A DNA stretch of 64,000 nt from an uncultured Methanosarcinales archaeon (lineage in GTDB: Archaea > Nanobdellota > Nanobdellia > Woesearchaeales > DATDXC01), in contig CAZDZV010000001.1 of assembly GCA_964510025.1 (NCBI GenBank), positions 63,949 through 127,948 on the forward strand, read 5' to 3'. Every line of letters begins with the position of its first letter. Position 1 is the first letter of the stretch. The notes below the pieces were generated by a model. It searched no databases. It saw only the letters and a program-made list of their open reading frames with translations, and was not told where the DNA came from. This document shows positions 31,770 through 46,916 of this stretch, one piece after another. The position numbers and the translations under genes were made by a program.

Positions 31770-32550
31770 ATTTCTGGATCATTTCTTTTTGCTTAAACTC
31801 ATCAATAAGCTTTGTGGCCATCTCCTTAACATTTCCCTTGAGCATCTCGCCGGGTGATTTTGCACTGGGAGTGAATGTCTTCTTCACTTTGGTTGGGCTT
31901 GACTTAATTCCTACCTTGCTATCCTGTACATTAATGTCCTTGGCAGACCAAATGACCATCTCTTTTTCAAATGACTTATCTATCCCCTCTAGGGTAGGAT
32001 ATCCCGGATCATTCAGATTGGCTGTGCATGTCAGCAAAACCGGAAACTTTGACTCAATTATCTCATATCCATCTTCCAGTTCCCTTTCAGCAACCACCTT
32101 TTCCCTTTCAACACTTATTTTCTGCACGTAAGTTATCTGGGGTATATCCAAAGACTCCGCAAGCTGGGGCCCGACCTGGGCTGTATCGCCGTCAATCGCT
32201 TGCCTCCCACAAAGCACCATGTCATAGTCTTTTATCTTATTTATTGCTGCAGCCAGGGCGTTTGCCGTTGCCCAGGTATCTGAACCGGCAAACTTAATGT
32301 CTGAAAGGAGAATCGCCTGGTCAGCGCCCATAGCAAGCGCTTCCCTCAGGGCATCTTCTGCTTGCGGCGGGCCCATCGTGATTACTGTGACCTTAGATTT
32401 GTCCTTAATTCTAATTGCTTCTGCTATTGCATTTTTGTCCTCTGGGTTGATTATGGTGGGGACACCTTCCCTTATCAAACGGCCTGTTTTGGGATCTATC
32501 TTAACCTCTGTTGTATCGGGCACCTGTTTAATGCAGACAATAATGTGCAT
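31762..32550 (-). CDS. etfB: Electron transfer flavoprotein beta subunit
   Basis: MHIIVCIKQVPDT start typical of EtfB. 262 aa. Confidence 0.8.
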   Translation of the reverse strand: MHIIVCIKQVPDTTEVKIDPKTGRLIREGVPTIINPEDKNAIAEAIRIKDKSKVTVITMGPPQAEDALREALAMGADQAILLSDIKFAGSDTWATANALAAAINKIKDYDMVLCGRQAIDGDTAQVGPQLAESLDIPQITYVQKISVEREKVVAERELEDGYEIIESKFPVLLTCTANLNDPGYPTLEGIDKSFEKEMVIWSAKDINVQDSKVGIKSSPTKVKKTFTPSAKSPGEMLKGNVKEMATKLIDEFKQKEMIQKFD

Positions 32551-32551
32551 C

Positions 32552-33706
32552 TTAGAAACCCCTACCGAGCAGCTGTGCAGCTATAACCAGGCGCTGAATC
32601 TCGCTAGTGCCCTCATATATCTCCGTAATCTTGGCATCCCTGTAAAGACGCTCTAAAGGATAATCCTTCATATAACCGTAACCTCCATGAATCTGGATTG
32701 CTTTCCGGGTAACATCCATTGCTACCTCCGATGCGAACAGTTTAGCCATAGCTGCTTCTTTTATGTATTTCTTCTTCTGATCTTTGAGATATGCTGCCCT
32801 GAAACAAAGGAGCCTGGCTGCCTCTATCGATGTGGCCATGTCTGCAAGCATAAACTGAATCGATTGGAACTTGTGCAACTTCCTTTTAAACTGTTCCCTT
32901 TCATTCACATATTTCAGTGATTCCTCATATGCAGCCTGGGCTATGCCAACTCCTTGCGCGCCTATTCCGATTCTTCCTGAATCTAAGGTCCACATCGTCT
33001 GCATAAATCCCCTTCCTTCAATACCTCCAATAAGGTTGGCTTGGGGCACGCGCATATCCTGAAAGATTATCTCTGATGTATTGCTGCCTCTAAGGCCTAG
33101 CTTGTCTTCCTTTTTCCCTACACTGAAGCCTGGAGTCTTTTTTGGCTCGACTATAAAAAGTGAAATGCCCTTATAGCCCGCGCTTTTATCTGTCATAGCA
33201 ACAATATTTATAAGATCGGCCACCCCGCCGTTGGTGATAAAAATCTTGCTCCCGTTTATTATAAATTCATCCTTGTCTTTCACTGCTGTCGTCTGAACAT
33301 TTGATGCATCGCTTCCTGCATTCGGTTCAGTCAGGGCAAAAGCCCCAAGATATTTACCTGAAGCAAGCAAAGGCAGAAATTTCCTTTTCTGTTCTTCTGT
33401 ACCGTAATTTACTATCGGGCCGCAGGCCAAGCTTGTATGGGCCCCCATCGTCACCGCGGTTGCGTTGCATGCTCGCGACATCTCCTCCATTATTATTGTC
33501 TGAGAAACAGCATCCAGCTCGGCCCCCTTATACTTCTTGGGTATCGACATGCCCATTATTCCTAGCTGTGAAAGCTTCTTGATCTGCTCTGAAGGAAAAA
33601 TCTCTCTCTGATCAGCTTCAGCGGCAAAGGGCTTAACTTCCTTTTCCGCGAACGCATGGATCATGCTTTTTATCATCAACTGCTTTTTAGTAAAGCTAAA
33701 GTCCAT
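32552..33706 (-). CDS. Acyl-CoA dehydrogenase (butyryl-CoA dehydrogenase-like)
   Basis: ACAD N-terminal, middle and C-terminal domains. Catalytic Glu in YEGTSEIQ. 384 aa. Confidence 0.85.
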   Translation of the reverse strand: MDFSFTKKQLMIKSMIHAFAEKEVKPFAAEADQREIFPSEQIKKLSQLGIMGMSIPKKYKGAELDAVSQTIIMEEMSRACNATAVTMGAHTSLACGPIVNYGTEEQKRKFLPLLASGKYLGAFALTEPNAGSDASNVQTTAVKDKDEFIINGSKIFITNGGVADLINIVAMTDKSAGYKGISLFIVEPKKTPGFSVGKKEDKLGLRGSNTSEIIFQDMRVPQANLIGGIEGRGFMQTMWTLDSGRIGIGAQGVGIAQAAYEESLKYVNEREQFKRKLHKFQSIQFMLADMATSIEAARLLCFRAAYLKDQKKKYIKEAAMAKLFASEVAMDVTRKAIQIHGGYGYMKDYPLERLYRDAKITEIYEGTSEIQRLVIAAQLLGRGF

Positions 33707-33719: not shown

Positions 33720-34454
33720 TTAAATCATCATCGCACCATCTACACGAATTACCTGGCCCGAGATATATCTGGCGCTGTCTGATGCAAGAAATACCGCCAA
33801 GTCAGCAACATCCTTCGGCGTTCCCATCTCCCTAAAGGATATAATCTCAAGTATCTTATCTAACATGACAACAGGTATCTTTTCTGTCATCCTGCTTTTT
33901 ATGAAACCAGGAGCGATGGCATTGACTGTTATTTTATGCTTTCCCACTTCCTTAGCCAATGATTTTGTAAATCCAATAATACCTGCTTTAGTTGCAGCAT
34001 AATTACACTGCCCAAAATTTCCGCCAAGGCCCACGACAGAGGATATGTTAATAATCCTTCCTCCCTCAGGTATCAGGGGTAGCATGTTATGGGTAACATT
34101 ATAGATTCCTGTTAAATTAACATTAATAACAGCGTTCCATTCCTCGGGCGTCATTTTTTTCAGTGTCCTGTCCTTTGTTATCCCTGCATTATTGATGAGA
34201 ATATCAACTTTCTTATGCTTGTCCTTTATTTCTTCTGCCATAGATTTGCAGTCTTCAAAATTAGATACATCAGCCGTCACGACGTAGGCCTCTACACCGA
34301 GATCCTTAAGCTCTGCTGCGAATGAGTTCGCCTGATTTTCAGCTGATTTAATGTCATTTATAATGATATTTACCCCTTGTTTAGCTAGTTCTAGAGCAAT
34401 GGCCTTTCCAATGCCCTGAGAAGCACCAGAAATCAAAGCAAATTTTCCTTTCAT
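33720..34454 (-). CDS. 3-oxoacyl reductase (FabG-like SDR)
   Basis: Rossmann ISGASQGIGKA, NNAG, and a YxxxK catalytic motif. Start taken at the internal MKGKFALISGAS. Confidence 0.8.
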   Translation of the reverse strand: MKGKFALISGASQGIGKAIALELAKQGVNIIINDIKSAENQANSFAAELKDLGVEAYVVTADVSNFEDCKSMAEEIKDKHKKVDILINNAGITKDRTLKKMTPEEWNAVINVNLTGIYNVTHNMLPLIPEGGRIINISSVVGLGGNFGQCNYAATKAGIIGFTKSLAKEVGKHKITVNAIAPGFIKSRMTEKIPVVMLDKILEIISFREMGTPKDVADLAVFLASDSARYISGQVIRVDGAMMI

Positions 34455-34738
34455 TAAATCACCCAAAAAAAAAGAAATTGTGAGCATATTTAAATTTTTC
34501 TAAACGTTAGATTTATAAATAAGTCTTGAATTCAATTCCCCATGAGCAATAGATACTACAGCAACAGATTGAGAAAAATAGAAAAGAAAAAGCTCAAGGT
34601 CAGAAGAAGAAAAAGCAGACCAAAATCTTTTAAGACAGAGGAAGCCGCCAGAAAATGGGCGGAATCTAACAAGATTAAAAAATATGTCCTGAAAGACCTG
34701 AAAACAGGGGATAAGAAGAAGATTATAGTGGTAGCTGA

Positions 34739-35863
34739 TTAGACTTTCTTTAGTATATGGCATGTAGTTGTGCCGCCCGCTCCTCCGATGTTATGTGCCA
34801 GTGCAATTTTAGTCCGTGTGAGCTGACGATCTCCTGCCTTGTTTCTCATCTGCTCCACTATTTCATAGATCATCCCAAGCCCTGTAGCTGAGACAGGATG
34901 ACCTTTTGCCTTCAATCCCCCAGAAGTGTTTATAGGCAGCCTGCCATCTATGTTAACATAACCATCCCTTATAAGCTTATACGCCTCTCCTTTTTTGCAG
35001 AAACCGATATCTTCATAAGCGATAAGCTCAACGCTGGTGAACGCGTCATGAACCTCCGCAAAATCAATATCTGATCTCTGCAAATTGGCCTGTTTAAAAG
35101 CCTCGTTGGCTGTAACGACAGAACCATCCCATGTTGTCATATCATCTCTTTCAAAAGGAAGAGGATCGGTGCACAAAGAAGACGCCAGAATCTTAACTTC
35201 TGTTTTGTCTTTTGTCAAAACTGCAGCAACAGAGCCATCTACGCTTATGCTGCAGTCAAAGAGCCTGAGAGGGGAAGTTACGATATGAGCATTCTTGATA
35301 TCTTCAAAAGACACCTTTTTCTTGTAAAAATAGGCCTTTGGGTTCAGGAATGCGTTCTCATGGTTCTTAAAGGCCACTAATGCAAGGTCATCTGTAGTCG
35401 TATCTGGATAGTTATCAAGGTATTGCTGGGCAATCAATGCATTTTCTCCTGGAAAGTTCAATCCTTCCAATTGTTCCCATCTTGATTCAGCTGCCATACC
35501 GAACTCTTCAGTAATATGCTCGGTGTTCCTTGTATTACCATGCAGCTTTTCAACTCCCACGGCGAGTATATTGTCGTAGCCAATCCTATTTGCTGTCCAT
35601 AAAGCGGCTCCTCCACCTGCACATGCTGCTGGCACCCTGATTATAGGGATATTTTTTTTTAGCATACCTGATAGCATTGAAGAAAAATGCCGTTGAAATT
35701 CTCCAGTATAAAACCATTCCAAGGTACTGCACACAACAGCATCGATCTTATTAAGGGAAATGTCTGCATCTTTCAGGGCCTCAGTTATGGCCTGGTAGGC
35801 CAAAAGATGGGAGGGTTTGTCGTGAATCCTGTATGGTGTTGAACCTACCCCCTTAATGTACAT
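34739..35863 (-). CDS. Archaeal-type thiolase (SCP-x/acetyl-CoA C-acyltransferase-like)
   Basis: Active-site VPAACAGG and a thiolase fold. 374 aa. Confidence 0.7.
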   Translation of the reverse strand: MYIKGVGSTPYRIHDKPSHLLAYQAITEALKDADISLNKIDAVVCSTLEWFYTGEFQRHFSSMLSGMLKKNIPIIRVPAACAGGGAALWTANRIGYDNILAVGVEKLHGNTRNTEHITEEFGMAAESRWEQLEGLNFPGENALIAQQYLDNYPDTTTDDLALVAFKNHENAFLNPKAYFYKKKVSFEDIKNAHIVTSPLRLFDCSISVDGSVAAVLTKDKTEVKILASSLCTDPLPFERDDMTTWDGSVVTANEAFKQANLQRSDIDFAEVHDAFTSVELIAYEDIGFCKKGEAYKLIRDGYVNIDGRLPINTSGGLKAKGHPVSATGLGMIYEIVEQMRNKAGDRQLTRTKIALAHNIGGAGGTTTCHILKKV

Positions 35864-36392
35864 TTACTTCACCATACCCAATTTCCAGTGCCTTCCTGTT
35901 TAGACCTATCAGCTGTTCTTTCCCCTTAAGTACTATTGGGAGAGCCTGAAACGCAGATTTGATATTTAGAATGTTCCGGCTACCAATATATGCTCCGACA
36001 AGTATGAGATTGGCTACTTTCTTATTACCTAGCTGTTCTGCCAGCCTGGTGGCTTCAATTCCTATCTTATTGAGGTCTTTTCTTGCAGGACTTACCCTAC
36101 ACTCAGATGTGTTCAGTATGATGAGTCCTTTCTTCTGAATCAGGGGTTCAAACCTTTCGAGTGATGGCTGATTCATTATGATAGCAGTGCTAGGATTTAC
36201 GACAACAGGAGAACCGATGGGTTTATCAGAGATGATTGCTGTTGAATTGGCAGTGCCTCCGCGCATCTCTACCCCATAGCTAACCATGCCGCATGTATGC
36301 AGGCCCTGTTCCATGGCGGCGTTAGCTATCAATGAGCCCGCCAACACAACACCCTGACCACCATATCCTGCACACGTAATTTTATCTATCAT
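35853..36392 (-). CDS. korG: 2-oxoacid:ferredoxin oxidoreductase gamma subunit
   Basis: CAGYGGQGVV start typical of KorG/PorG. Confidence 0.75.
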   Translation of the reverse strand: MIDKITCAGYGGQGVVLAGSLIANAAMEQGLHTCGMVSYGVEMRGGTANSTAIISDKPIGSPVVVNPSTAIIMNQPSLERFEPLIQKKGLIILNTSECRVSPARKDLNKIGIEATRLAEQLGNKKVANLILVGAYIGSRNILNIKSAFQALPIVLKGKEQLIGLNRKALEIGYGEVNVH

Positions 36393-37173
36393 TGTCTCTA
36401 AAAACCCCCAAGGGAAAATACTCTTGCATCTGTTCCACGAACTTGATGCTATCTTTCATGTCTTTATGCCAGTTTGTAGGGCACATTGACAGAACTTCAA
36501 CAAAACTATAGCCTTTGCCATCAAGCTGGTATTGGAAAGCTTTCTTTATCGCGTTTCTTGTCCTTTTTATATTTGCGGCGCTGTTGACTGCTACCCTTTC
36601 AATATAAGAGGGCGCTTCAAGTACCGATAGAAGCTCACACATCTTGATAGGAGGGCCTTCTTGATTTCTGCCCCTGCCTTCCGGAGTGGTCGTAGTCCTC
36701 TGCCCGGGGATTGTCGTTGGAGCCATCTGGCCACCTGTCATTCCGTATACTGCGTTGTTAATAAAAATCACAGTTATATTTTCGCCTCTGTTTGCCGTAT
36801 GAATCGTCTCATTTGTTCCAATCGCCGCCAAATCACCGTCACCCTGGTAGGCGAAAACCAGTTTATCTGGCAGACATCGCTTTATTGCCGACATCACAGA
36901 TGGGACCCTGCCGTGGGCGCACTCAATAACATCGATATTAAAGTAATTGTAAAAAAGAACCGCACAACCTACGGGGGCGCTAGCTATTGTCTTTTCTCGA
37001 AGATTCATCTCATCCAGAATTTCTCCAATCAGCCTGTGTACGATGATATGCCCGCAGCCCGGACAGTAGTGCATCCTTGCATCTTTTAGTGATTTGATCG
37101 ACTTAGCATCCTGATTCTTTTTTGGAGCATAATCGTGCTCTTCTGTCAGCTCGTATCTTCTATATGGTTTCAT
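36382..37173 (-). CDS. korB: 2-oxoacid:ferredoxin oxidoreductase beta subunit (TPP-binding)
   Basis: CPGCGH motif and a GDG TPP motif. Start taken at MKPYRRYE, giving an ATGA overlap with the korA stop. Confidence 0.8.
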   Translation of the reverse strand: MKPYRRYELTEEHDYAPKKNQDAKSIKSLKDARMHYCPGCGHIIVHRLIGEILDEMNLREKTIASAPVGCAVLFYNYFNIDVIECAHGRVPSVMSAIKRCLPDKLVFAYQGDGDLAAIGTNETIHTANRGENITVIFINNAVYGMTGGQMAPTTIPGQRTTTTPEGRGRNQEGPPIKMCELLSVLEAPSYIERVAVNSAANIKRTRNAIKKAFQYQLDGKGYSFVEVLSMCPTNWHKDMKDSIKFVEQMQEYFPLGVFRDNDR

Positions 37174-38222
37174 ATTATTTCCTGAATCTTTTTGAATATC
37201 TGTTCGGTATCCGGATACCAGCCACCGCCATGTCCAAGAAAATGATATTGCCCTTTGCATTCGGTGGACAGTCTCACGTCCTCTATAAACTGGCCCTCAC
37301 TCATCTCTACTATGAGAAAAGTTTTTTCTGCATATTTCCTGAATATGGACTTAGGGAAGGGCCACAGGGCAATTGGTCTAATCATGCCCACCTTCAACCC
37401 GTTTTCCCTTGCTACATCCACTGCCTCCCTAGAAACTCGCGCCGAGATACCATATGAAGCTATCAGAATATCCGCATCCTTGGTCTCGTATTCCTCGCAG
37501 AGCTGCAAATCCTTCTCAATCTTTCTGTACTTCTTCTGCAGATGTATATTATGCTTTACAAGCAGATCAGGAGGTCTGAGCAAAAGCGTTTTTATGATGT
37601 GGGGTGATCTACCTTCACAACCTGTCAGAGTCCAGCTGTCTTTTCTTGGAAGCTTTAGGATCGGATTATAGGGCCTCATTTCAACAGGCTCTACCATCTG
37701 GCCCATTATCCCATCTGAAAGAACCATCACCGGATTTCTGTAATAATCTGCAAAATCAAATGCCTTCATCATCAGGCCATATAGTTCTTGCAGATTTGAG
37801 GGTGAAAGCACTATAAGACGATAATCTCCATGGCCACCGCCTTTTGTGGCTTGAAAATAATCTCCCTGAGAACCGCGGATATTGCCTAGGCCTGGCCCTC
37901 CCCTCTGCATGTTGACAATGACGCATGGAAGCTCTGCTGCTGCTATATAAGAAATACCTTCCTGCTTTAAGGCGATGCCCGGGCTGCTTGATGAAGTCAT
38001 ACATCTTGTCCCTGTTGAAGCCGCCCCGAACAGCATGTTAATTGCTGACAGCTCTGCCTCTGCCTGTATGAAGATGCCTCCTGCCTCAGGCATAAAAATT
38101 GACATATATTCCGGCACCTCGTTCTGGGGAGTTATAGGATAGCCGGCATAGAACCTGCATTTTGCTGCAATGGCTGCATGAACCAGGGCTTCATTTCCTT
38201 TCATAAGTCTTTTTTCATGCAT
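37170..38222 (-). CDS. korA: 2-oxoacid:ferredoxin oxidoreductase alpha subunit
   Basis: GNEALVHAAIAAKCRFYAGYPITP start typical of KorA/PorA. Confidence 0.8.
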   Translation of the reverse strand: MHEKRLMKGNEALVHAAIAAKCRFYAGYPITPQNEVPEYMSIFMPEAGGIFIQAEAELSAINMLFGAASTGTRCMTSSSSPGIALKQEGISYIAAAELPCVIVNMQRGGPGLGNIRGSQGDYFQATKGGGHGDYRLIVLSPSNLQELYGLMMKAFDFADYYRNPVMVLSDGIMGQMVEPVEMRPYNPILKLPRKDSWTLTGCEGRSPHIIKTLLLRPPDLLVKHNIHLQKKYRKIEKDLQLCEEYETKDADILIASYGISARVSREAVDVARENGLKVGMIRPIALWPFPKSIFRKYAEKTFLIVEMSEGQFIEDVRLSTECKGQYHFLGHGGGWYPDTEQIFKKIQEII

Positions 38223-39351
38223 TTTGCTTAATAAGTCTTGATCCGATCGCTGGCTTCAGCTCTATCCGGCAGGCATCTAGCTCATCTCCAACAGTGACAA
38301 TCTCCCTGAGGTCTCCAGATCCTATGCCTAGCCTTTCTGCTGCATCAATTAAGGGTATTTTTCTCAGCATCCCTATTTCTTGGAAAACCTTATCCAACGC
38401 TACAGGATCCTTTGATGCGAGAAGCATATTCAGGAAAGCTGGTTCTCCGTATTTCAACGGGCCGTTGCCTTGCATCCCGATTGAGGCATCTCCCAGAGTA
38501 ATGTACCTAGGCAGCACCTTATGCAGATGTGCAATTGCATCAAGGGCCTTCAACGGATCCCTTGCCATTTCTTTATAATTTTCTTTTGAGACCAGCCTGG
38601 TCATATTTTCAAGGGCGCCTGAAATTCCCAAAAGCAGATGGGTTTTCATCACTGGTACATTTATCACCAGATCTTTAGTTGCGATCTCCTTAGTCAGCTG
38701 AAACCTGAACCCCCCTGATTCTTTTTCAACATAATCTGTCTGGGACAAATCTACCAACCTTATGCCCCATTTCTTGCAGAGCTTGCCGAAGCCAGATTTC
38801 CTTGCAGCATTATCAAAGTCTCCATACTGGACCTGTTCGGCAACCACGATATTTTCAGCGCTGGCTCCTTTTTTTGTGAGATATTCTATCAAAGAATCAA
38901 CAACCCTGGGATTTGTAGTAATAGCCATATATGGATAAGCTGCTGCCATAATATTCGGTTTTATCAGGATATTTGAATCCTTCTCAATATCGACATCCCC
39001 TATCAAAGAGAAAGCCTGTTTTGTTGCCTCAAAAAAATCATACTTGATTTTTATGATCGATACTGCACTCTCATCTTCACTCTTTTCCCACCGATATTCA
39101 TCCCCAATCTTATATTCTCTCATCGTCTTCTTCGGCATCCGGTTTCCGTGCTCATCCTCTAGAATAAGAGTGTAGTAAGGGACTATAGGGTGCATGATAG
39201 AAGGAATGGTGACTTCTGTAAGTCCAATAACCTTTGTTTTATTTCCCACCTGTTTCGATATCTTTGCATTACAGTAGATACATTCTTCAATAGGATATAT
39301 CCACTTTTTTTTGCATTTTTTACATATCCATCTTATTATCAACTCAACCAC
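38215..39351 (-). CDS. DUF35-like Zn-ribbon/OB-fold N-domain fused to a DUF362-like C-domain
   Basis: N-terminal CKKCKKKW...CIYCN Zn ribbon plus OB, like the thiolase scaffold protein. The C-terminal 280 aa resemble DUF362. It overlaps the next thiolase by 8 bp. Confidence 0.45.
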   Translation of the reverse strand: MVELIIRWICKKCKKKWIYPIEECIYCNAKISKQVGNKTKVIGLTEVTIPSIMHPIVPYYTLILEDEHGNRMPKKTMREYKIGDEYRWEKSEDESAVSIIKIKYDFFEATKQAFSLIGDVDIEKDSNILIKPNIMAAAYPYMAITTNPRVVDSLIEYLTKKGASAENIVVAEQVQYGDFDNAARKSGFGKLCKKWGIRLVDLSQTDYVEKESGGFRFQLTKEIATKDLVINVPVMKTHLLLGISGALENMTRLVSKENYKEMARDPLKALDAIAHLHKVLPRYITLGDASIGMQGNGPLKYGEPAFLNMLLASKDPVALDKVFQEIGMLRKIPLIDAAERLGIGSGDLREIVTVGDELDACRIELKPAIGSRLIKQNA

Positions 39352-40468
39352 CCATTTTCCTAAAAATATGTACGCTTATGGTAGCTCCAACCCCACCAAT
39401 ATTTTGGGTCAGGCCATATCTGTGCCTTGAAACCTGTCTTTCTTTACATTCCCCTCTAAGCTGCTTAACAATTTCGTATATCTGCGCCATGCCTGTCGGG
39501 CTTATAGGGTGGCCTCTAGCTTTCAAACCCCCACTAACATTGACTGGAAGCTTTCCATCTAAATTTGTGATACCCTCCCTTATTAGCTCCGCACCTTTCC
39601 CTTTATTGCAGAAGCCAAGATCTTCGTAGCTCATTAGTTCAAGAATGGTAAATGCATCATGAAGTTCTGCAACGTCAATATCCTTAGCTGATATTCCTGA
39701 ACTTTTATATGCCTGACCCGCCGCTTCTTTCGTGGCCTTCAGTTCTGTCAGGCTCTCTCTTTCGAAGGTCATAAGATAGTCTGTAGCTAATCCAGAGCCT
39801 GCTACCTCGATATCTGACTTATCCTTAGTCAAAACCGCTGCCGCTGCCCCATTCACGCTTATACTACAATCATACAGCCTGAAAGGCGAGGCAACTATTG
39901 GGGATCCCTTTATGGCTTCCAAGGTAACCTTTTTTTTATAGAAATGCGCTTTCGGGTTTAAATATGCATTCTCATGATTCTTGTGAGCAATCATTGCAAG
40001 GTCATCCGAAGTGGTGCCAAATTCCAGCATGTGCTGTTGTGCCAGGAGCGCATTTTCCGCGGGAAACACCAATCCTTCTGGCTGGCTCCATATCCTATCA
40101 GCAGCCGTAAGAATCTCATTTGTAACCACTTCTGTCTTATTGCAGGCTAATTTTTCAGTAGCCAGCACAAGCACATTATCATATTGCAGCCTAAGCGCTG
40201 TCCAGAATGCGGCCCCGCCCCCACCACAAACAGCGGGAACCCGTATTATAGGTATTTTTGTCTTGAAAAGAGAACTGACAATGGATGGATAGTGCCTCTG
40301 CCTTTCATCTGTGTGGATAGTGTCACTTGTAGAAATCACCATTGCATTTATGTCTTTAAGTGAAACGTCTGATTCATCCAAGGCCTCGTAGGCTGCTTCA
40401 TAGGCCATACCTGCAGTTGTCCTATCGGCCAAAGAAAATTTAGTCATGCCAACGCCTTGAACATACAT
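39344..40468 (-). CDS. Archaeal-type thiolase, paralog of the 34739-35863 gene
   Basis: VPAVCGGGGAAF active-site region. Same length at 374 aa and collinear similarity. Confidence 0.7.
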   Translation of the reverse strand: MYVQGVGMTKFSLADRTTAGMAYEAAYEALDESDVSLKDINAMVISTSDTIHTDERQRHYPSIVSSLFKTKIPIIRVPAVCGGGGAAFWTALRLQYDNVLVLATEKLACNKTEVVTNEILTAADRIWSQPEGLVFPAENALLAQQHMLEFGTTSDDLAMIAHKNHENAYLNPKAHFYKKKVTLEAIKGSPIVASPFRLYDCSISVNGAAAAVLTKDKSDIEVAGSGLATDYLMTFERESLTELKATKEAAGQAYKSSGISAKDIDVAELHDAFTILELMSYEDLGFCNKGKGAELIREGITNLDGKLPVNVSGGLKARGHPISPTGMAQIYEIVKQLRGECKERQVSRHRYGLTQNIGGVGATISVHIFRKMGG

Positions 40469-40476
40469 ATGAGCAC

Positions 40477-41010
40477 CTATTTAAAAGCTGGACTATGCTG
40501 GCTCCTGAACTCCTTCCTGTCAACAACAGCCAACATCAGGGTTGATTCTGCTATAATCTTGTTATCCTTAAGGACCTTACCCTGCAATAGGGCTCCCCTA
40601 TCATCCTGCCCCATAAGGGCCACTTCGTAAGTCAATTGATCACCTGGAAAAGCCGGCGCAGAAAATTTGGCATCCTTAATCTTATAGGCCAGGACATCCT
40701 TGGAATGGTGATCTTCCAGATTGTATCTCACTAGGAGCGTAGCAGCTTGTCCCATCCCCTCTACTATGAGGGCACCGGGCATTATAGGAAAACCCGCAAA
40801 ATGACCCTTTACATACCATTCGTTAGCTGTCACATTTTTCACAGCCACTATCTTATTTTTATCCAATCCCGCCACCTTATCTATCATCAAAAAGGGGTAT
40901 TCGTATGGAATTATCTGCCTTATGGCATTCATATCCAGCTGGCCTTTTTGATCCTTTAAATCGTCTATCGATTTCATTTTTAACCCCCCGCAATTTGGCA
41001 TTTTTAGCAA
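40477..41010 (-). CDS. 3-hydroxyacyl dehydratase (FabZ-like hotdog)
   Basis: IPYEYPFLMIDKV...HFAGFPIMPGALIVEGMGQ matches FabZ IPHRYPFLLVDRV...HFPG.PVMPGVL..EAMAQ. Confidence 0.75.
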   Translation of the reverse strand: MLKMPNCGGLKMKSIDDLKDQKGQLDMNAIRQIIPYEYPFLMIDKVAGLDKNKIVAVKNVTANEWYVKGHFAGFPIMPGALIVEGMGQAATLLVRYNLEDHHSKDVLAYKIKDAKFSAPAFPGDQLTYEVALMGQDDRGALLQGKVLKDNKIIAESTLMLAVVDRKEFRSQHSPAFK

Positions 41011-41104: not shown

Positions 41105-42955
41105 ATGAAAAAGAAAGGAAAAATAGAGAAATTGCTTAACAATTCACTGATGAAAATTGTGCAGGGCTACAGACTGTTTAGAAGAACACTTAAAAAAACA
41201 AAACAGGCTATGCCTGAGGTTTATGGCCAGATAGATAATGTTCTCAAGCAGAATCTCGTTACCTTTGAAAGAAACAACCAGAGCTTCTCTGATGCGATTG
41301 TTGACAGGCTTATCAGAAAGCTCCCAACTTTAGGTGAGGAGAAGCTGACCAAAATAATAAACGGCGGTTCTTCAAAGTCTTTTTTTGATATGCTAAATAA
41401 GAGCCTCGGAGCGACCCTGGAAGAGGAGAAAGACTATACAAAGCTGGAAAAAGAAAAGCTGTTTAACAGCATCCTTATAGCTAACAGGGGAGAGATCGCC
41501 CTTAGGATCATAAGAGCTTGTAAGGAACTAGGAATCAAAGTCTATGTGATTTACTCCAAACCTGAAAAAAATACACTTTTTGTCAAATTTGCAGATAAGG
41601 CTTATTGCATTGGAAACCCCAGAGACTATCTGAACATCAGGAAGATAATCAAAATAGCCAAAAAAGCAAAAGCAGATGCTATACATCCTGGATATGGATA
41701 CTTATCTGAAAATTCCCAGTTTGCCAAGCTTTGCCTAAAAAACAAAATAAACTTTATAGGACCGAATATCAAGGCACTAGAGCTTATGGGCAACAAGGTT
41801 AAAGCCAGAAAGATAATAAGCAAAATGGGAATAAATGTTATAGCAGGAACAGTCACTCCCCTTAAAAATCTGGAAGACGCACAGTCAGCTGCCCAGGAAA
41901 TCGGCTATCCTGTTATATTGAAGGCCGCTTTGGGCGGCGGCGGCAAGGGCATGCGAGTTGTCTATTCAGGGGATAAGCTTGAAACGGCATTCAAAAGCGC
42001 CTCAACTGAAGCGCAAGCTGCATTTGGTGATCATTCTTTATATATGGAAAAATACATAGAAAAACCAAAGCATATTGAGTTTCAGATTTTGGCAGATAAA
42101 TTCAAGAATATTGTCCATTTGGGAGAAAGAGACTGCAGCATACAAAGAAGGCATCAGAAGCTTATTGAAGAGGCTCCGTCAACGGTATTGAATGGGAAAT
42201 TAAGAGAAAAAATTGGAAAAGATGCCAGAAGAATAGCCTCCAAAATAGGGTATAAGGGTGCTGGAACAGTTGAGTTCCTGCTAGATAAGAGAAAAAATTA
42301 TTATTTTATGGAAATGAACGCGCGTATACAGGTAGAACATGGAATAACTGAGATGATAAGCGGGGTAGATCTTGTTAAGGAGCAGATAAGAATCGCCGCC
42401 GGAGGCAAGCTTACCTATAAACAGGAAGATATCAAGCTCAACGGGTGGGCTATAGAGTGCAGGATAAATGCTGAGAACCCGTTTGATGATTTTAAACCTA
42501 GCACTGGCATTGTCACTAATTATTTACCTCCAGGTGGCCGTGATATACGTATATCAAGCCATTCGTACACAGGGCATGTCATATCTCACCATTATGATCC
42601 GCTCATCTCAAATCTTATATGCGGGGGTAAGAACAGAAATGAGGCAATCGCCAGAATGAAGAGGGCGCTTGAAGAATATATTATCGAGGGCGTACAAACC
42701 AATATCCCTTTTCATAAGCTAGTAATGCAAGATAAGGATTTTATCAAAGGCAATATAAGCACAGATTTTATAGAAAAAAATAAAATAATTGAAAAGCTGA
42801 GAAAGCACAAGATTAGGAAAAAAGAGCTTTCAAAAAAGGAAAAATTACTCATAATAACGACAGCTGTATCCAGATATATGGAGGGCAGAGAGAATGATGC
42901 TCCGGACAACTGGGTTATCGCAGGTAGGCAGGAACAGCTAAATCAAAATGTTTAG
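41105..42955 (+). CDS. accC: Biotin carboxylase (acyl-CoA carboxylase subunit) with N- and C-terminal extensions
   Basis: NSILIANRGEIALRIIRA and the ATP-grasp GGGGKGMR motif. An N-terminal extension of about 110 aa is not present in canonical AccC. Confidence 0.8.
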   Translation: MKKKGKIEKLLNNSLMKIVQGYRLFRRTLKKTKQAMPEVYGQIDNVLKQNLVTFERNNQSFSDAIVDRLIRKLPTLGEEKLTKIINGGSSKSFFDMLNKSLGATLEEEKDYTKLEKEKLFNSILIANRGEIALRIIRACKELGIKVYVIYSKPEKNTLFVKFADKAYCIGNPRDYLNIRKIIKIAKKAKADAIHPGYGYLSENSQFAKLCLKNKINFIGPNIKALELMGNKVKARKIISKMGINVIAGTVTPLKNLEDAQSAAQEIGYPVILKAALGGGGKGMRVVYSGDKLETAFKSASTEAQAAFGDHSLYMEKYIEKPKHIEFQILADKFKNIVHLGERDCSIQRRHQKLIEEAPSTVLNGKLREKIGKDARRIASKIGYKGAGTVEFLLDKRKNYYFMEMNARIQVEHGITEMISGVDLVKEQIRIAAGGKLTYKQEDIKLNGWAIECRINAENPFDDFKPSTGIVTNYLPPGGRDIRISSHSYTGHVISHHYDPLISNLICGGKNRNEAIARMKRALEEYIIEGVQTNIPFHKLVMQDKDFIKGNISTDFIEKNKIIEKLRKHKIRKKELSKKEKLLIITTAVSRYMEGRENDAPDNWVIAGRQEQLNQNV

Positions 42956-43637
42956 CATCTTCTTTTATAAGAAAATAGGTTCTACAAATTCCAAAGCTAA
43001 GACAATGCCCAAGCATGGCACTGTGATAGTGGCTCAGGAACAGACAGAAGGCAGGGGCAGATTTAAAAGAGAATGGTTTTCAGAAAAAGGGGGCCTATAC
43101 TTCTCTGTGGTCTTAAGGAGTGACAAGGTTGCCAATTTAAGATTTCTTACCTTCATGGCAGCTATTGCCCTGCACAAAGCTGTCAAGGAGCACTATGGTT
43201 TAAAATGCACGATAAAATGGCCCAATGATTTGATGATTGGCAAAAAAAAGCTAGCCGGCATCTTAACTGAGAGTATTATTGGGAATAAGGTAGTTGCCAT
43301 AATTGGCATCGGGATAAATACCAACAATGCGTTGCCTTCCGGTATCAGAGCTGAATCCTTATCAAGAATTCTAAAGAGGAAGATAAATAATAGAAAGCTA
43401 CTGCAGATATTCTTACACAATCTAGAGGAATATCTTAAGCTAGTGGACAATGGGAAACATGGTAGAATAATATCTGACTGGAAAAGAAGATCCTTTCTTG
43501 GCAGCGAAGTCAGGGTTTGCAGTCTGAAAGGAGAATACACAGGAATAGCCTATAATGTCAACGATGATTGCTGCCTTGTTCTCAAGAAAAACAATAAATA
43601 TACTGTTATTGAGGAAGGAGACGTATACATATGCTAG
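42948..43637 (+). CDS. birA: Biotin--protein ligase
   Basis: GRGRFKREWFSEKGGLYFSVVL and KWPNDLMIGKKKLAGIL BPL motifs. Confidence 0.75.
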   Translation: MFSIFFYKKIGSTNSKAKTMPKHGTVIVAQEQTEGRGRFKREWFSEKGGLYFSVVLRSDKVANLRFLTFMAAIALHKAVKEHYGLKCTIKWPNDLMIGKKKLAGILTESIIGNKVVAIIGIGINTNNALPSGIRAESLSRILKRKINNRKLLQIFLHNLEEYLKLVDNGKHGRIISDWKRRSFLGSEVRVCSLKGEYTGIAYNVNDDCCLVLKKNNKYTVIEEGDVYIC

Positions 43638-45088
43638 ACATGTTCGATTTCTGTATGATTTGATATTTCCGAATTTGTAGTGCATAAATCAGCTACAGTC
43701 AAGCTATGGATATCTTCATTTCCGGTCATTCTTGCAAAAGTCTCTAGTTCCTGCCTAACAACGTTGAGAAAGTTCTCAAGCCTTTTCGCACTTTTATCTA
43801 TGTCAAGTCTTTGCCTTAGCTTTTCATCATGGGTGGTAACGCCAACCGGACAGTTGTTTGTATTGCATACGTTATATTGCTGACATGCACACGCCATTAA
43901 GGCGGCAGTGCCAATAGCTATTGCATCTGCCCCTAATGCAAGAGCCTTAACAAAGTCAGAAGGAACTCTCAGTCCGCCGGTTATATGGAGGCTGATATCT
44001 TTTACATCATGCTCATCAAAATATTTTTTTGCCCTGTAGAGTGCATAGATTGTAGGCACAGATGAGGAGTCCTTAATCGATTTAGGAGATGCGCCAGTGC
44101 CGCCCGGCCTTCCATCAATGGTGATAAAGTCAGGCTCGGCGTAGACTGCTATTTGCAGATCATCCTCAATATGGCCTGCGGCGATCTTAATCCCAATCGG
44201 AGCACCTTCAGACTTGTCCCTCAACCACTTCACCTTTTTCTTGAGATCTTCCTTATTTTTTATATCATTGAAACTTGCTGGACTTTCTATATAGTGCCCT
44301 TTCTCAGATCCCCTAATCTGAGCTATCTCTTCTGTAACTTTATCCGCAGGCATTTCCCCGCCTAGTCCTGGTTTTGTGGATTGCCCAATTTTGATCTCAA
44401 TTCCATCAACATTCTTCAGGTTTTCGTCTGTTACGCTGTAGGCGTTCGGAACATATTCAAAAATATATTTATAAGCGCTTTTTCTTGAATCCTCCAAGAT
44501 GCCGCCCTCACCTGAACACATTGCTGTTTTGACTGCTGCCGAGCCTTTAGCCAGTGCTATCTTCACTTCCCTTGATAAGGCTCCGAAAGACATGTGCGTT
44601 ATATAAACAGGAAAGGAAATTTGAATGGGCTTTTTTGCCTTCTTTCCGATTATCGTCGTCAAATTAACTTTTTTATCCTTATTGAGAGGGATCTTTGCCA
44701 GCTGTGCGCCCTTGATGAGGATATCATCCCAAGAAACAACATGTTTTTTGGTGCGCATAGGCTCTGTTACAGATTTTCCGGTCCTGGCCACCTCATGAAT
44801 AAAATCCATCCATTTCTCTGTTTTATCATTTTGCCTCGTCCACTGAGAAAGATAATCATCCTGAGGCTCTTCCTTTTTCCCCTGCATATCATCATAATTC
44901 TTTTTCTTTTCCTGAAATTCCTTACCACTAATTTCTTTCAGATTCTCCCTGGATGCGCCGCAAACAGGACACCTCCAATCATCAGGAAGCTCCTCTTTAG
45001 TCACCCCCCTATCAATGCCTGCATTCTGATCCCCTATCTCAGAATCAAATACAAATACGTTGCATACTGTACAGATGTATTTGCTCAT
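43634..45088 (-). CDS. Rubredoxin-fused glutamate synthase-like FMN domain protein (archaeal GltB-domain 2 family)
   Basis: N-terminal CTVC...CPVC rubredoxin knuckles, then a GltS FMN/Fe-S domain (GGTGASP, CxxxC cluster). Confidence 0.7.
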   Translation of the reverse strand: MSKYICTVCNVFVFDSEIGDQNAGIDRGVTKEELPDDWRCPVCGASRENLKEISGKEFQEKKKNYDDMQGKKEEPQDDYLSQWTRQNDKTEKWMDFIHEVARTGKSVTEPMRTKKHVVSWDDILIKGAQLAKIPLNKDKKVNLTTIIGKKAKKPIQISFPVYITHMSFGALSREVKIALAKGSAAVKTAMCSGEGGILEDSRKSAYKYIFEYVPNAYSVTDENLKNVDGIEIKIGQSTKPGLGGEMPADKVTEEIAQIRGSEKGHYIESPASFNDIKNKEDLKKKVKWLRDKSEGAPIGIKIAAGHIEDDLQIAVYAEPDFITIDGRPGGTGASPKSIKDSSSVPTIYALYRAKKYFDEHDVKDISLHITGGLRVPSDFVKALALGADAIAIGTAALMACACQQYNVCNTNNCPVGVTTHDEKLRQRLDIDKSAKRLENFLNVVRQELETFARMTGNEDIHSLTVADLCTTNSEISNHTEIEHV

Positions 45089-45585
45089 CTTATCTCCTTA
45101 AACTGGGATTTTTTCGCTCCGCAGATTGGGCAGGTATCTGGAGCATCAGCTTCAACAGTGTTTCCACAGACCTGGCATACAAATACCCTCTCTTGGTTCA
45201 GATCTCTCTCTGATTCCAGCGCTTCCAGTGCTTTCTTATACAGTCCTGCATGTATCTCTTCAACTTTATTTGCCCTAAAAAAAGATATATGGGCATCCTG
45301 GTGTTTATCGTCTTTAGCATCCTGAATCATCCCAGGGTACATGTTCTGGAACTCATGGGTTTCCCCCTCTATCGCTTCTTTTAGATTTTGCTTCGTAGAT
45401 CTAATCCCGCCCATTGCTTTTAGGTGCTCGATTGCGTGGACAGTCTCGGCATCAGCTGCGGCCCTAAAAAGTTTTGCAATTTCCTTTAACCCCTCCTTCT
45501 CCGCCTGATCGGCAAAAGCAATATATTTTCTGTTTGCCTGACTCTCTCCGGCAAATGCTTTTTTTAGATTTCCTTCAGTTTTCAT
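45085..45585 (-). CDS. rbr: Rubrerythrin
   Basis: EGNLKKAFAGESQANRKY diiron domain plus C-terminal CQVCG...CPICG. Start taken at MKTEGNL. Confidence 0.75.
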   Translation of the reverse strand: MKTEGNLKKAFAGESQANRKYIAFADQAEKEGLKEIAKLFRAAADAETVHAIEHLKAMGGIRSTKQNLKEAIEGETHEFQNMYPGMIQDAKDDKHQDAHISFFRANKVEEIHAGLYKKALEALESERDLNQERVFVCQVCGNTVEADAPDTCPICGAKKSQFKEIR

Positions 45586-45623
45586 CCTTCGCCCCCGAAT
45601 GCCACAAATAGCAAACATCCTAG

Positions 45624-46055: not shown

Positions 46056-46127
46056 ATTAGCAAGATGCGCATGTTTATTACTCTTTGCTTTTTAATTAGT
46101 GTACTGCTGTATAATAATCTTTAAATA

Positions 46128-46400
46128 TTGACATGTATTCTTAGCTTTAGAATGCCCTGGCTAAAAAAGGTCCCTTTGCTCAAAAAGATATTCGAGTTTG
46201 GATATACTATGCTTCTTATAATAATATTAAGCGCGATTTCTGGACTGATACTGGCTTTTCCTGTTATGTGGCTGTGGAACTTTGTATTTCAAAGAATGAA
46301 TGAAGCTTTACATATCAATGTATTTCAAGCCTGGGCGCTCAATGTACTAACAGGCATACTATTTGGCTATAAGAATACCAGTTCGAAAAATGATAGATAA
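46128..46400 (+). CDS. Small hypothetical membrane protein
   Basis: 90-aa ORF with two hydrophobic segments. No homology recognised. Confidence 0.25.
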   Translation: MTCILSFRMPWLKKVPLLKKIFEFGYTMLLIIILSAISGLILAFPVMWLWNFVFQRMNEALHINVFQAWALNVLTGILFGYKNTSSKNDR

Positions 46401-46913: not shown

Positions 46914-46916
46914 TTC

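What the first reader, a model, noticed from the sequence alone, without database searches (positions are those of the whole stretch)
38215..39351. Unusual fusion: DUF35-like thiolase scaffold domain fused to a DUF362-like domain, translationally coupled to a thiolase
The N-terminal Zn-ribbon/OB region resembles DUF35 proteins, which form complexes with archaeal thiolases and HMG-CoA synthase. Here it is extended by about 280 aa of a different fold with the DUF362 flavour, and it overlaps the downstream thiolase gene by 8 bp. A second thiolase paralog lies 3.5 kb away. The fusion may tether an additional enzymatic or regulatory function to the condensing enzyme complex.
Basis: inference. Interest (0 to 1): 0.5.

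Follow-up and report, generated by a model that had tools for sequence, protein, structure and literature searches.

The report
Thiolase adaptor fused to DUF362 domain
A DPANN archaeon encodes, between two thiolase genes in a fatty-acid/ester-lipid gene cluster, a protein that joins a DUF35-like zinc-ribbon/OB "thiolase-docking" module to a lactate-racemase-fold DUF362 domain; the same docking module is fused to the next-step ketoreductase in other archaea, so the fusion most likely tethers a second domain to the condensing enzyme.

Summary
Window 38215-39351 (minus strand) is one 378-aa ORF. Residues 128-323 match Pfam DUF362 (139 bits). Residues 1-105 match no Pfam model, but a confident AlphaFold model (pLDDT 90.5) shows a 4-Cys zinc ribbon plus OB fold, and its best structural matches are DUF35 proteins from thiolase complexes.

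Corrections: the coupled thiolase lies upstream, not downstream. The 8-bp overlap depends on the GTG start.

The architecture is conserved in over 300 Woesearchaeota/Nanoarchaeota proteins. In all five related loci examined it sits between two thiolase paralogs. Those loci carry FabZ-like, SDR, acyl-CoA dehydrogenase/ETF (missing in two), acetyl-CoA carboxylase, PlsC and GpsA genes.

A profile of the N-module finds only 120 protein clusters. In these it is fused to DUF362, to 3-hydroxyacyl-CoA dehydrogenase or to an SDR. In every 3HCDH or canonical-DUF362 locus examined (7 of 7), the fusion directly follows a thiolase gene.

I conclude it is a thiolase-docking adaptor carrying a next-step domain. 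In this clade the DUF362 domain has Glu where generic DUF362 has a conserved Lys, and it lacks a following His, so it may be catalytically altered or inactive. No binding or activity was tested. It is a new variant of a known kind.

The parts
38215..39351 (-). Fusion gene, 378 aa with the GTG start (375 aa if the TTG at 39342 is used)
   Evidence: ORF list. Start-codon region. 100% identical protein P0001 of 375 aa.
39262..39330 (-). Rubredoxin-like zinc ribbon, aa 8-30 (C10, C13, C24, C27)
   Evidence: The Cys residues are nearly invariant in alignment A1. The model shows beta hairpins here.
39037..39261 (-). OB-fold part of the DUF35-like module, aa 31-105
38242..39036 (-). LarA-fold DUF362 domain, aa 106-370 (Pfam core aa 128-323 = 38383-38970)
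   Evidence: Pfam PF04015, 139 bits. Foldseek to malate/lactate racemases 7s91, 6d6z, 2yjg and 5huq, E 7e-8 to 1e-4.
38608..38610 (-). Codon of Glu248, at the position where generic DUF362 has the Lys of its 'KN' motif
   Evidence: Alignments A3 and a local MAFFT run.
39344..40468 (-). Thiolase-1 (archaeal/SCP2-type), immediately upstream and translationally coupled
   Evidence: Pfam Thiolase_C_1. Closest solved structures 7yvy and 6esq thiolases.
34739..35863 (-). Thiolase-2, a paralog 53% identical to thiolase-1
   Evidence: In related genomes it directly follows the fusion gene.
35853..38222 (-). Three-subunit 2-oxoacid:ferredoxin oxidoreductase (alpha 37170-38222, beta 36382-37260, gamma 35853-36392), inserted between the fusion gene and thiolase-2
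   Evidence: Pfam and NCBIfam (VorB subfamily, 499 bits). Absent from this position in homologous loci L001, L002 and L004-L006.
40477..41010 (-). FabZ/FabA-like dehydratase, first gene of the minus-strand block
   Evidence: Pfam FabA and NCBIfam FabZ.
33720..34487 (-). FabG-like SDR (candidate 3-ketoacyl-CoA reductase)
   Evidence: Pfam adh_short_C2, E 1.7e-64.
30603..33706 (-). Acyl-CoA dehydrogenase (32552-33706), ETF beta (31762-32550), ETF alpha (30603-31769)
   Evidence: ACAD and ETF beta are read from the ORF translations and by position-matching to genes carrying precomputed Pfam Acyl-CoA_dh/ETF hits in L001; they were not scanned here. Pfam ETF + ETF_alpha hits for ETF alpha.
28354..30603 (-). 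GpsA-type G3P dehydrogenase (28354-29325) and two PlsC-type acyltransferases (29322-29972, 29956-30603)
   Evidence: Pfam.
41105..48452 (.). Acetyl-CoA-carboxylase set: biotin carboxylase 41105-42955 (+), BirA 42948-43637 (+), 4HBT thioesterase 45624-46055 (-), BCCP 46530-46913 (-), carboxyltransferase 46917-48452 (-)
   Evidence: Pfam. The same genes flank the fusion gene in L001, L002 and L004-L006.

Best explanation
The protein is the adaptor subunit of a thiolase-centred, CoA-based (no ACP seen) fatty-acid-synthesis machinery in a Woesearchaeota-type DPANN archaeon.

Its N-terminal zinc-ribbon/OB module is a divergent structural relative of DUF35. I infer that it clamps onto the thiolase encoded just upstream, and probably also onto the paralog thiolase-2, as DUF35 does in solved thiolase complexes.

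This holds the C-terminal LarA-fold DUF362 domain next to the condensing enzyme. In sister fusions that slot is occupied by the next-step enzyme, either 3-hydroxyacyl-CoA dehydrogenase or an SDR ketoreductase.

In this clade a separate FabG-like SDR is present. The DUF362 domain has lost the family's conserved Lys (now Glu248) and the following His. I therefore infer that it works mainly as a non-redox docking or acyl-CoA-handling platform that helps assemble thiolase(s), SDR and FabZ-like dehydratase, so the unfavourable condensation is pulled forward by channelling.

What is shown: the architecture, the folds, the conservation, the synteny and the alternative fusions. What is inferred: binding to thiolase, complex assembly, loss of catalysis and the biosynthetic direction.

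For: 2. Gene coupling. There is a 1-nt gap or an 8-bp overlap with thiolase-1. In 5 of 5 homologous loci the gene lies directly between two thiolase paralogs.

3. Modularity. A profile of the N-module against 1.84 billion proteins finds 120 clusters: 42 with DUF362, 26 with 3HCDH, 1 with an SDR, 13 other long proteins (9 scanned, no significant Pfam match) and 38 short ones. The 3HCDH fusions (3 of 3 loci) and the canonical-DUF362 fusions (4 of 4 loci) directly follow a thiolase gene.

4. A second, more degenerate DUF362-fusion lineage lies in the same kind of cluster, thiolase ... fusion-SDR-FabZ-PlsC-ACC. A thiolase lies upstream in 32 of 37 loci of at least 7 kb.

5. Precedent. [quoted passage not shown] DUF35 fused to a partner enzyme is already known from ChsH2 (6ok1) and from an HMGS-DUF35 fusion (PMC12960953).

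6. Lys-to-Glu change and loss of His in the target clade, compared with generic and canonical fused DUF362.

Against: No multimer model or experiment shows binding.

The DUF362 domain keeps many invariant polar residues in this clade: K131, T146, N147, E172, N231, K236, E248, N249, D288 and the GNGP loop. That fits a working ligand site as well as a scaffold.

The acyl-CoA dehydrogenase and ETF genes are typical of beta-oxidation, so the direction of the pathway is not settled.

The equivalence of Glu248 with LarA Lys184 rests on motif spacing and on a sub-threshold Lar_N match (E 0.041), not on a verified superposition.
Confidence: 0.55

Rival explanations
1. The DUF362 domain is an active enzyme of the pathway. 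It would be a LarA-like hydride-transfer or other catalyst acting on the thiolase product, for example 3-oxoacyl-CoA reduction or 3-hydroxyacyl-CoA epimerisation, or on malonyl-CoA. The N-module delivers it to the thiolase.
For: In glycan-type cassettes, canonical DUF362 fusions (4 of 4 loci) occupy exactly the place that 3HCDH fusions (3 of 3 loci) occupy: thiolase, then fusion, plus an N-acyltransferase and a Polysacc_deac_1/DUF3473 protein. This suggests functional equivalence. Many polar residues of the domain are invariant in the target clade. Generic DUF362 has an H-x9-K-x13-14-H motif that mirrors LarA H174/K184/H200 (LarA residues from PMC11770544).
Against: In the target clade the Lys is Glu, the distal His is missing and the proximal His varies (H/D/N). 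A sister lineage in the same kind of cluster has also lost the KPN and GNGP motifs. The cluster already encodes an SDR, a dehydratase and a reductase system. No cofactor-synthesis genes were seen, but only 64 kb was available.
Confidence: 0.25
2. The cluster runs in the degradative direction (beta-oxidation of scavenged fatty acids). The fusion scaffolds thiolytic cleavage rather than synthesis.
For: Acyl-CoA dehydrogenase plus ETF alpha/beta are classic beta-oxidation components. Thiolases are reversible. DPANN archaea are generally thought to scavenge lipids (PMC7242380).
Against: The conserved neighbours are biosynthetic: acetyl-CoA carboxylase subunits with BirA, a FabZ-like (R)-specific dehydratase, a FabG-like SDR, two PlsC acyltransferases and GpsA. 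The sister cluster uses FabK-like NMO reductases and a cyclopropane-fatty-acid synthase instead of ACAD/ETF. No enoyl-CoA hydratase of the crotonase type and no acyl-CoA synthetase is present in the block.
Confidence: 0.15
3. The N-terminal module is a nucleic-acid- or protein-binding zinc-ribbon/OB domain unrelated to thiolase docking, comparable to the DUF35-fold translation recovery factor Trf. The thiolase adjacency would be only operonic.
For: Trf (6htj) is among the structural matches. There is no sequence-level DUF35 signal.
Confidence: 0.05
4. The fusion is an artefact: a frameshift or assembly join of two separate genes.
For: None found.
Against: The reading frame is continuous. The full-length architecture appears in hundreds of independent assemblies. 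A confident single model has the two domains packed together, pTM 0.89.
Confidence: 0.01

Closest known systems
[quoted passage not shown]
   Same: A 4-Cys zinc ribbon followed by an OB fold. The gene sits beside an archaeal-type thiolase. The structures are similar. Thiolase-1 is closest to the 7yvy and 6esq thiolases.
   Different: There is no detectable sequence relationship. The model shows no N-terminal segment before the ribbon. The module is fused to a ~270-aa domain. The partners are two thiolase paralogs, not a thiolase plus HMG-CoA synthase.
S. acidocaldarius fatty-acid synthase complex: ketothiolase/DUF35 (Saci_1121/1120) + SDR reductase + MaoC dehydratase (bioRxiv 10.1101/2024.07.05.601840)
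   Same: It is an ACP-independent, thiolase-based pathway in which a DUF35-type protein mediates assembly with the reductase and the dehydratase. The window encodes a thiolase, a DUF35-like module, an SDR and a dehydratase in one block.
   Different: Here the adaptor is fused to DUF362. The dehydratase is FabZ-like rather than MaoC. The candidate enoyl reductase is ACAD/ETF rather than an NADPH enoyl-CoA reductase. Acetyl-CoA carboxylase, PlsC and GpsA genes are linked. Nothing has been tested biochemically.
ChsH2(DUF35)-Ltp2 and Shy(DUF35)-Sal steroid aldolases (6ok1, 9myr); HMGS-DUF35 fusion in Pseudomonas (PMC12960953)
   Same: A DUF35 domain is covalently fused to an enzyme of the adjacent step and docks it onto a thiolase-fold protein.
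   Different: The fusion partner differs (MaoC hydratase or HMGS there, DUF362 here). The lineage and the pathway also differ.
PhlABC / MucABC acyltransferases (5m3k, 9vbt)
   Same: Two thiolase-fold paralogous subunits are bridged by a small zinc-ribbon/OB protein. The window likewise has two thiolase paralogs flanking the adaptor in related genomes.
   Different: Those enzymes carry out Friedel-Crafts C-acetylation in bacterial antibiotic pathways. Their adaptor is free-standing.
LarA (lactate racemase) superfamily, DUF2088, same Pfam clan CL0471 as DUF362
   Same: The fold is the same (Foldseek E 7e-8). Generic DUF362 shows an H-x9-K-x13-14-H pattern like LarA H174/K184/H200.
   Different: The domain is shorter. 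The Lar_N model is not matched above threshold. The target clade has Glu at the Lys position and no distal His.

Membership tests
DUF35 (Pfam PF12172 zf-ChsH2 + PF01796 OB_ChsH2_C) | Rubredoxin-like four-Cys zinc ribbon directly followed by an OB fold | tested here: met
   C10, C13, C24 and C27 are nearly invariant. The AF2 topology fits.
DUF35 (Pfam PF12172 zf-ChsH2 + PF01796 OB_ChsH2_C) | Structural similarity to solved DUF35 proteins above the generic OB-fold background | tested here: met
DUF35 (Pfam PF12172 zf-ChsH2 + PF01796 OB_ChsH2_C) | Sequence match to the family models | tested here: not met
   No Pfam hit at E<=10. hhalign against six Pfam-verified DUF35 proteins gives probability 2%. 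A local HMM gives nothing. The N-module profile recovers no canonical DUF35 protein among 1.84 billion proteins.
DUF35 (Pfam PF12172 zf-ChsH2 + PF01796 OB_ChsH2_C) | Gene adjacent to a thiolase-fold gene | tested here: met
   Window. Also 5/5, 3/3 and 4/4 related loci.
DUF35 (Pfam PF12172 zf-ChsH2 + PF01796 OB_ChsH2_C) | Physical complex with a thiolase-fold protein | not testable with these tools
   No multimer prediction was available. This needs AF-Multimer or a pull-down.
DUF362 (Pfam PF04015) | Match to the family model above the gathering score | tested here: met
   139 bits against a cutoff of 24, profile positions 1-198 of 200.
DUF362 (Pfam PF04015) | Family-wide K(T/N)H...KN...H motif, as seen in two bacterial DUF362 proteins and in canonical fused forms | tested here: not met
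   The target has KTH...GALEN with Glu248 and no distal His. The generic comparison rests on only two bacterial sequences plus five fused ones.
LarA / DUF2088 nickel-pincer racemases | Fold similarity | tested here: met
   7s91 at E 6.7e-8, plus 6d6z, 2yjg and 5huq.
LarA / DUF2088 nickel-pincer racemases | Match to Pfam Lar_N | tested here: not met
   13.5 bits against a cutoff of 23.3, E 0.041.
LarA / DUF2088 nickel-pincer racemases | Cofactor-binding Lys184 and His200, catalytic His108/His174 (PMC11770544) | tested here: inconclusive
   Motif spacing and the weak Lar_N alignment place E248 at the K184 position and H238 at the H174 position. No residue-level superposition could be made.
LarA / DUF2088 nickel-pincer racemases | LarB/LarC/LarE cofactor-synthesis genes in the genome | not tested
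   Only a 64-kb window is available.
Archaeal thiolase-based fatty-acid synthase (S. acidocaldarius type) | Ketothiolase + DUF35-type adaptor + SDR ketoacyl-CoA reductase + (R)-hydroxyacyl-CoA dehydratase encoded together | tested here: met
   Thiolase-1/-2, fusion, SDR and FabZ-like genes. The dehydratase and the reductase belong to different families than in Sulfolobus.
Archaeal thiolase-based fatty-acid synthase (S. acidocaldarius type) | Stable multi-enzyme complex and de novo fatty-acid synthesis | not testable with these tools
   This requires biochemistry or labelling.

The most novel reading that the evidence does not exclude
Canonical DUF362 would be a LarA-like, cofactor-dependent enzyme that acts on the thiolase product. 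It would be a non-homologous substitute for 3-hydroxyacyl-CoA dehydrogenase, delivered to the thiolase by a dedicated zinc-ribbon/OB docking module. That would give DUF362, a large family with no function reported in the literature searched, its first function.

The window's protein would be the version of this module recruited into an ACP-independent fatty-acid synthase. Together with the linked ACC, PlsC and GpsA genes, this would let DPANN archaea make bacterial-type ester lipids themselves.
Probability: 0.2. Interest if true: 0.8.

Novelty: new variant of a known kind. Interest (0 to 1): 0.6.

Why it matters
DUF35 proteins are emerging as organisers of thiolase complexes in the mevalonate pathway, in archaeal fatty-acid synthesis, in steroid side-chain cleavage and in antibiotic acylation. 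This finding adds a divergent branch that current sequence models miss. Public sources name its members only as 'DUF362 domain-containing protein', or as 3-hydroxybutyryl/3-hydroxyacyl-CoA dehydrogenase for the 3HCDH fusions.

It shows the N-module as a portable docking unit fused to DUF362, 3HCDH or an SDR. That gives a concrete, testable handle on the function of DUF362.

It also marks a conserved gene cluster (thiolases, FabZ-like, SDR, ACAD/ETF or FabK-like, acetyl-CoA carboxylase, PlsC, GpsA) in Woesearchaeota-type archaea. These organisms are usually assumed to scavenge lipids. The cluster therefore bears on the archaeal/bacterial 'lipid divide'.

Tried and rejected
- Pfam and NCBIfam on the N-terminal 126 aa alone found only noise.
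- PDB sequence searches with profiles of the whole family and of the N-module found nothing.
- PDB sequence searches with two generic bacterial DUF362 proteins, run to obtain a residue-level alignment to LarA, found only ferredoxin-domain hits or noise. The Glu248/Lys184 equivalence therefore stays inferential.
- The genome-contig scan with the canonical-type fusion P0147 returned only generic DUF362 genes without the N-module.
- The afdb50 fold library was not available.
- hhalign of the N-module against six canonical DUF35 proteins taken from plasmids was not significant, although the alignment was in register.
- I considered the Ala in the thiolases' 'HDAF' an anomaly relative to 'HDCF' in 6esq. 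I dropped this because the conserved motif is HDxF (PMC12960953) and 7yvy also has HDAF.
- I checked the 66-aa N-terminal extension of ETF alpha for a ferredoxin-type Cys motif and found none.
- Literature searches for DUF362, PF04015 and DPANN fatty-acid synthesis found no description of this fusion.
Full report
**The observation**

Window 38215-39351 on the minus strand is a single 378-aa ORF with a GTG start. Pfam DUF362 (PF04015) matches aa 128-323 at 139 bits against a cutoff of 24. The N-terminal 126 aa match nothing in Pfam, even at E<=10.

The upstream gene on the same strand (39344-40468) is an archaeal/SCP2-type thiolase. Its TGA stop (39346-39344) overlaps the GTG start by 8 bp. A TTG at 39342 would give the N-terminus MIIRW that most homologs share, and it is preceded by GGTGG. 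Either way the two genes are tightly coupled.

It is upstream. The real downstream neighbour is the alpha subunit of a three-subunit 2-oxoacid:ferredoxin oxidoreductase. It overlaps the fusion gene by 8 bp (ATGCATGA). A second thiolase, 53% identical to the first, follows the oxidoreductase at 34739-35863.

**Is the fusion real, and what are the two halves?**

A search of 5.8 billion proteins gave 338 hits. Nearly all of the 120 best listed are full-length, 365-380 aa. Where the source gives a name, it is Woesearchaeota or Nanoarchaeota 'DUF362 domain-containing protein'.

In an alignment of 31 of these proteins the N-terminal ~105 aa are as conserved as the rest. Features include CxxC-x10-CxxC (C10, C13, C24, C27) and invariant G43, H54-P55, P58-Y59 and D66.

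AlphaFold2 with this alignment gives pLDDT 90.5 and pTM 0.89. Foldseek against the PDB splits the model cleanly:
- The C-terminal part matches malate and lactate racemases of the LarA family (7s91, 6d6z, 2yjg, 5huq), E 7e-8 to 1e-4.
- The N-terminal part matches only DUF35 proteins: ChsH2-DUF35 in the Ltp2 aldolase, BbsA of benzoylsuccinyl-CoA thiolase, the DUF35 of the archaeal thiolase/HMG-CoA synthase complex, SSO2064, PhlB, chains of the MucABC complex and Trf.

Sequence methods do not see this relationship:
- hhalign against six Pfam-verified DUF35 proteins taken from plasmids gives probability 2%, although the alignment is in register.
- A local DUF35 HMM finds nothing in the window.
- A HMMER profile of the N-module recovers no canonical DUF35 protein among 1.84 billion proteins.

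So the N-terminus is DUF35-like by fold, by architecture and by gene context. By sequence it is not a member of the Pfam family. DUF362 and the LarA N-domain (DUF2088) belong to the same Pfam clan (PMC11770544), which fits the fold result.

**Context**

The window is archaeal. It holds RadA, an RNA polymerase subunit D with an Fe-S domain, and archaeal ribosomal proteins.

The minus-strand block reads as follows:
- FabZ-like dehydratase
- thiolase-1
- the fusion
- oxidoreductase alpha, beta, gamma
- thiolase-2
- FabG-like SDR
- acyl-CoA dehydrogenase
- ETF beta and alpha
- two PlsC acyltransferases
- GpsA

On the other side lie biotin carboxylase, BirA, a thioesterase, BCCP and carboxyltransferase.

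Five homologous loci from other assemblies keep most of this neighbourhood, with the fusion gene directly between the two thiolase paralogs. L001 and its unsequenced twin have the whole set. L002 and L004-L006 lack ACAD/ETF, and other genes lie between thiolase-2 and the SDR. The oxidoreductase insertion is therefore particular to this genome.

GpsA in Woesearchaeota and PlsC in DPANN have been noted before (PMC6431249). I found no paper that describes the fusion or the fatty-acid block.

**The N-module is portable**

The N-module profile finds only 120 clusters (50% identity) in 1.84 billion proteins. Classified locally and with Pfam, they divide as follows:
- 42 carry DUF362.
- 26 carry a 3-hydroxyacyl-CoA dehydrogenase (3HCDH_N + 3HCDH). 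Examples are P0167 and P0170, with N-module E about 1e-19.
- One carries an SDR (P0212).
- 13 are other long proteins; the nine scanned with Pfam had no significant match.
- 38 are short, either fragments or free-standing modules.

The 3HCDH fusions form a sizeable family of about 365 aa. The few source names given are Methanocella, Methanothrix and 'Candidatus Scalindua'. In 3 of 3 loci they directly follow an archaeal-type thiolase.

A further group joins the N-module to a canonical DUF362 with a Cys-rich C-terminal extension; one member is labelled Candidatus Diapherotrites. In 4 of 4 loci it also directly follows a thiolase.

A third DUF362 group of about 340 aa lies in clusters with the order thiolase ... 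fusion - SDR - FabZ - PlsC - biotin carboxylase - BCCP - BirA - carboxyltransferase. A thiolase lies upstream in 32 of 37 loci of at least 7 kb. Four of the five exceptions have under 1.5 kb of upstream sequence. In L034 this cluster also holds a FakA/DegV fusion, a DUF359/cytidylyltransferase protein (I read DUF359 as the archaeal dephospho-CoA kinase family; own knowledge, not checked), a cyclopropane-fatty-acid synthase and FabA-NMO (FabK-like) proteins.

The recurring unit is therefore 'thiolase followed by [zinc-ribbon/OB module - X]'. X is a ketoacyl-CoA reductase/hydroxyacyl-CoA dehydrogenase or DUF362. This is the strongest evidence that the module docks its passenger onto the thiolase.

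It also matches published biochemistry. In S. acidocaldarius the ketothiolase/DUF35 pair binds the SDR reductase and the dehydratase (bioRxiv 10.1101/2024.07.05.601840). DUF35 fused to partner enzymes is already known from ChsH2 and from an HMGS-DUF35 fusion.

**The DUF362 domain**

I compared the family with two generic bacterial DUF362 proteins fetched from plasmids. These and the canonical fused forms share KPN, TxP, K(T/N)H, (A/G)xKN followed 13-14 residues later by His, and DGxxxxEGxGP.

The H-x9-K-x13-14-H spacing mirrors LarA His174, Lys184 (which tethers the cofactor) and His200 (the nickel ligand) (PMC11770544). A sub-threshold Lar_N match puts target residues 201-245 on Lar_N profile positions 129-173. 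That is consistent with His238 at the His174 position and residue 248 at the Lys184 position. This equivalence is an inference. I could not obtain a residue-level superposition.

- The window's clade keeps KPN, TTNP, KT(H/D/N) and GDxxIGMQGNGP. It has an invariant Glu248-Asn249 instead of Lys-Asn, and mostly no distal His.
- The 340-aa group has also lost the KPN and GNGP motifs.
- Both groups that lack the Lys sit in clusters with a separate FabG-like SDR.
- The Lys-keeping group sits in glycan-type cassettes: thiolase, fusion, an N-acyltransferase of the Hexapep, Acetyltransf_9 or Antibiotic_NAT type, and a Polysacc_deac_1/DUF3473 protein in three of the four loci. The 3HCDH fusions sit in the same kind of cassette.

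This pattern suggests that canonical DUF362 and 3HCDH are alternatives for processing acetoacetyl-CoA. It also suggests that in the fatty-acid clusters the domain has drifted toward a structural or altered role.

**Mechanism proposed**

I take the protein to be the adaptor of a CoA-based, thiolase-driven fatty-acid synthase.
- The N-module binds the thiolase dimer(s).
- The DUF362 domain, held beside the active site, serves mainly as a docking or acyl-CoA-handling platform.
- Together with the SDR and the FabZ-like dehydratase, this pulls the unfavourable condensation forward by channelling.

Confidence is 0.55. I am more confident in the docking role of the N-module than in the non-catalytic reading of DUF362. 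What is shown: folds, conservation, synteny, alternative fusions and the residue changes. What is inferred: binding, complex formation, loss of catalysis and the biosynthetic direction.

Rival explanations are:
- an active DUF362 enzyme (0.25)
- a degradative cluster (0.15)
- a non-thiolase role for the N-module (0.05)
- an artefact (0.01)

**Novelty and verdict**

DUF35-type adaptors are known, and so are DUF35 fusions to partner enzymes. The new elements are:
- a sequence-divergent, unannotated branch of the module
- its N-terminal fusion to a LarA-fold DUF362 domain, with 3HCDH and SDR as alternative partners
- its fixed place in a conserved fatty-acid/ester-lipid cluster of DPANN archaea

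I rate it a new variant of a known kind, interest 0.6. The most novel reading the evidence does not exclude is that DUF362 is a LarA-like enzyme replacing 3HCDH, and that these archaea make ester lipids de novo. I give that a probability of about 0.2.

Noticed in passing
Proteins P0167, P0170, P0179, P0193, P0217 (3HCDH fusions) and P0212 (SDR fusion); loci L008 4133-6368, L009 4869-7095, L010 3264-7110: The same zinc-ribbon/OB module is fused N-terminally to 3-hydroxyacyl-CoA dehydrogenase in a sizeable ~365-aa family (source names where given: Methanocella, Methanothrix, 'Ca. Scalindua') and once to an SDR. In the three loci examined these fusion genes directly follow a thiolase gene. Public names call them plain 3-hydroxybutyryl-CoA dehydrogenases, and the extra ~90 aa is unannotated.
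   Followed up: partly
L098 6874-11277, L099 1-3203, L110 3869-7722, L111 2988-7479, compared with L008-L010: Fusions of the module to a canonical DUF362 (Lys and His kept, Cys-rich C-terminal extension) sit in the same kind of cassette as the 3HCDH fusions. The cassette is thiolase, fusion and an N-acyltransferase, with a Polysacc_deac_1/DUF3473 protein in three of the four loci, among glycan-synthesis genes. This looks like a non-homologous replacement and may hint at the function of DUF362.
   Followed up: partly
window 35853-38222 (-): A VorB-type 2-oxoacid:ferredoxin oxidoreductase (alpha, beta, gamma; no delta/ferredoxin subunit nearby) is inserted between the fusion gene and thiolase-2, with overlapping start and stop codons. 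It is absent from this position in five related loci. It could supply acyl-CoA primers, possibly branched ones.
   Followed up: partly
window 28354-48452; loci L001, L002, L004-L006: A conserved cluster lies between housekeeping genes (ribosomal protein S2, RadA) in a DPANN archaeon. It encodes acetyl-CoA carboxylase subunits with BirA, a thioesterase, FabZ-like, two thiolases, an SDR, ACAD/ETF, two PlsC and GpsA. Together these amount to a bacterial-type ester-lipid route. No ACP, AcpS, FabD or KAS gene was identified in the genes scanned, about 37 of the window's roughly 60.
   Followed up: partly
L018-L097, e.g. L034 2169-13064: A second lineage has a related cluster with a degenerate DUF362 fusion. 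It also holds a FakA-DegV fusion, a DUF359/cytidylyltransferase protein (possibly archaeal CoA synthesis), a cyclopropane-fatty-acid synthase, a FabA-like/NMO (FabK-like) fusion, a second NMO, PlsC and ACC. It has only one thiolase.
   Followed up: partly
Proteins P0116, P0119, P0120, P0125-P0129 (about 488 aa); P0114, P0129: Long variants carry a ~110-aa insertion near the C-terminus. It aligns with the Cys-rich extension (DGKPCSGC...GCPP) of the canonical-type fusions, but the Cys residues are lost. Some family members have also lost one or all four zinc-ribbon Cys residues.
   Followed up: no
window 41105-42955 (+): The biotin carboxylase has a ~115-aa N-terminal extension before the Biotin_carb_N domain. 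Homologs in related loci are similarly long, 637-646 aa. The extension has no Pfam match.
   Followed up: no
window 43634-45618 (-): A rubredoxin fused to a glutamate-synthase-type FMN domain (484 aa) and an apparent rubrerythrin (by inspection of the translation; not scanned) sit inside the carboxylase/lipid cluster, between BirA and the thioesterase. They are not at this position in the related loci inspected.
   Followed up: no
window 30603-31769 (-): ETF alpha has a 66-aa N-terminal extension before the ETF domain. It has no Cys motif, so it is not a ferredoxin domain of the CarE type.
   Followed up: yes
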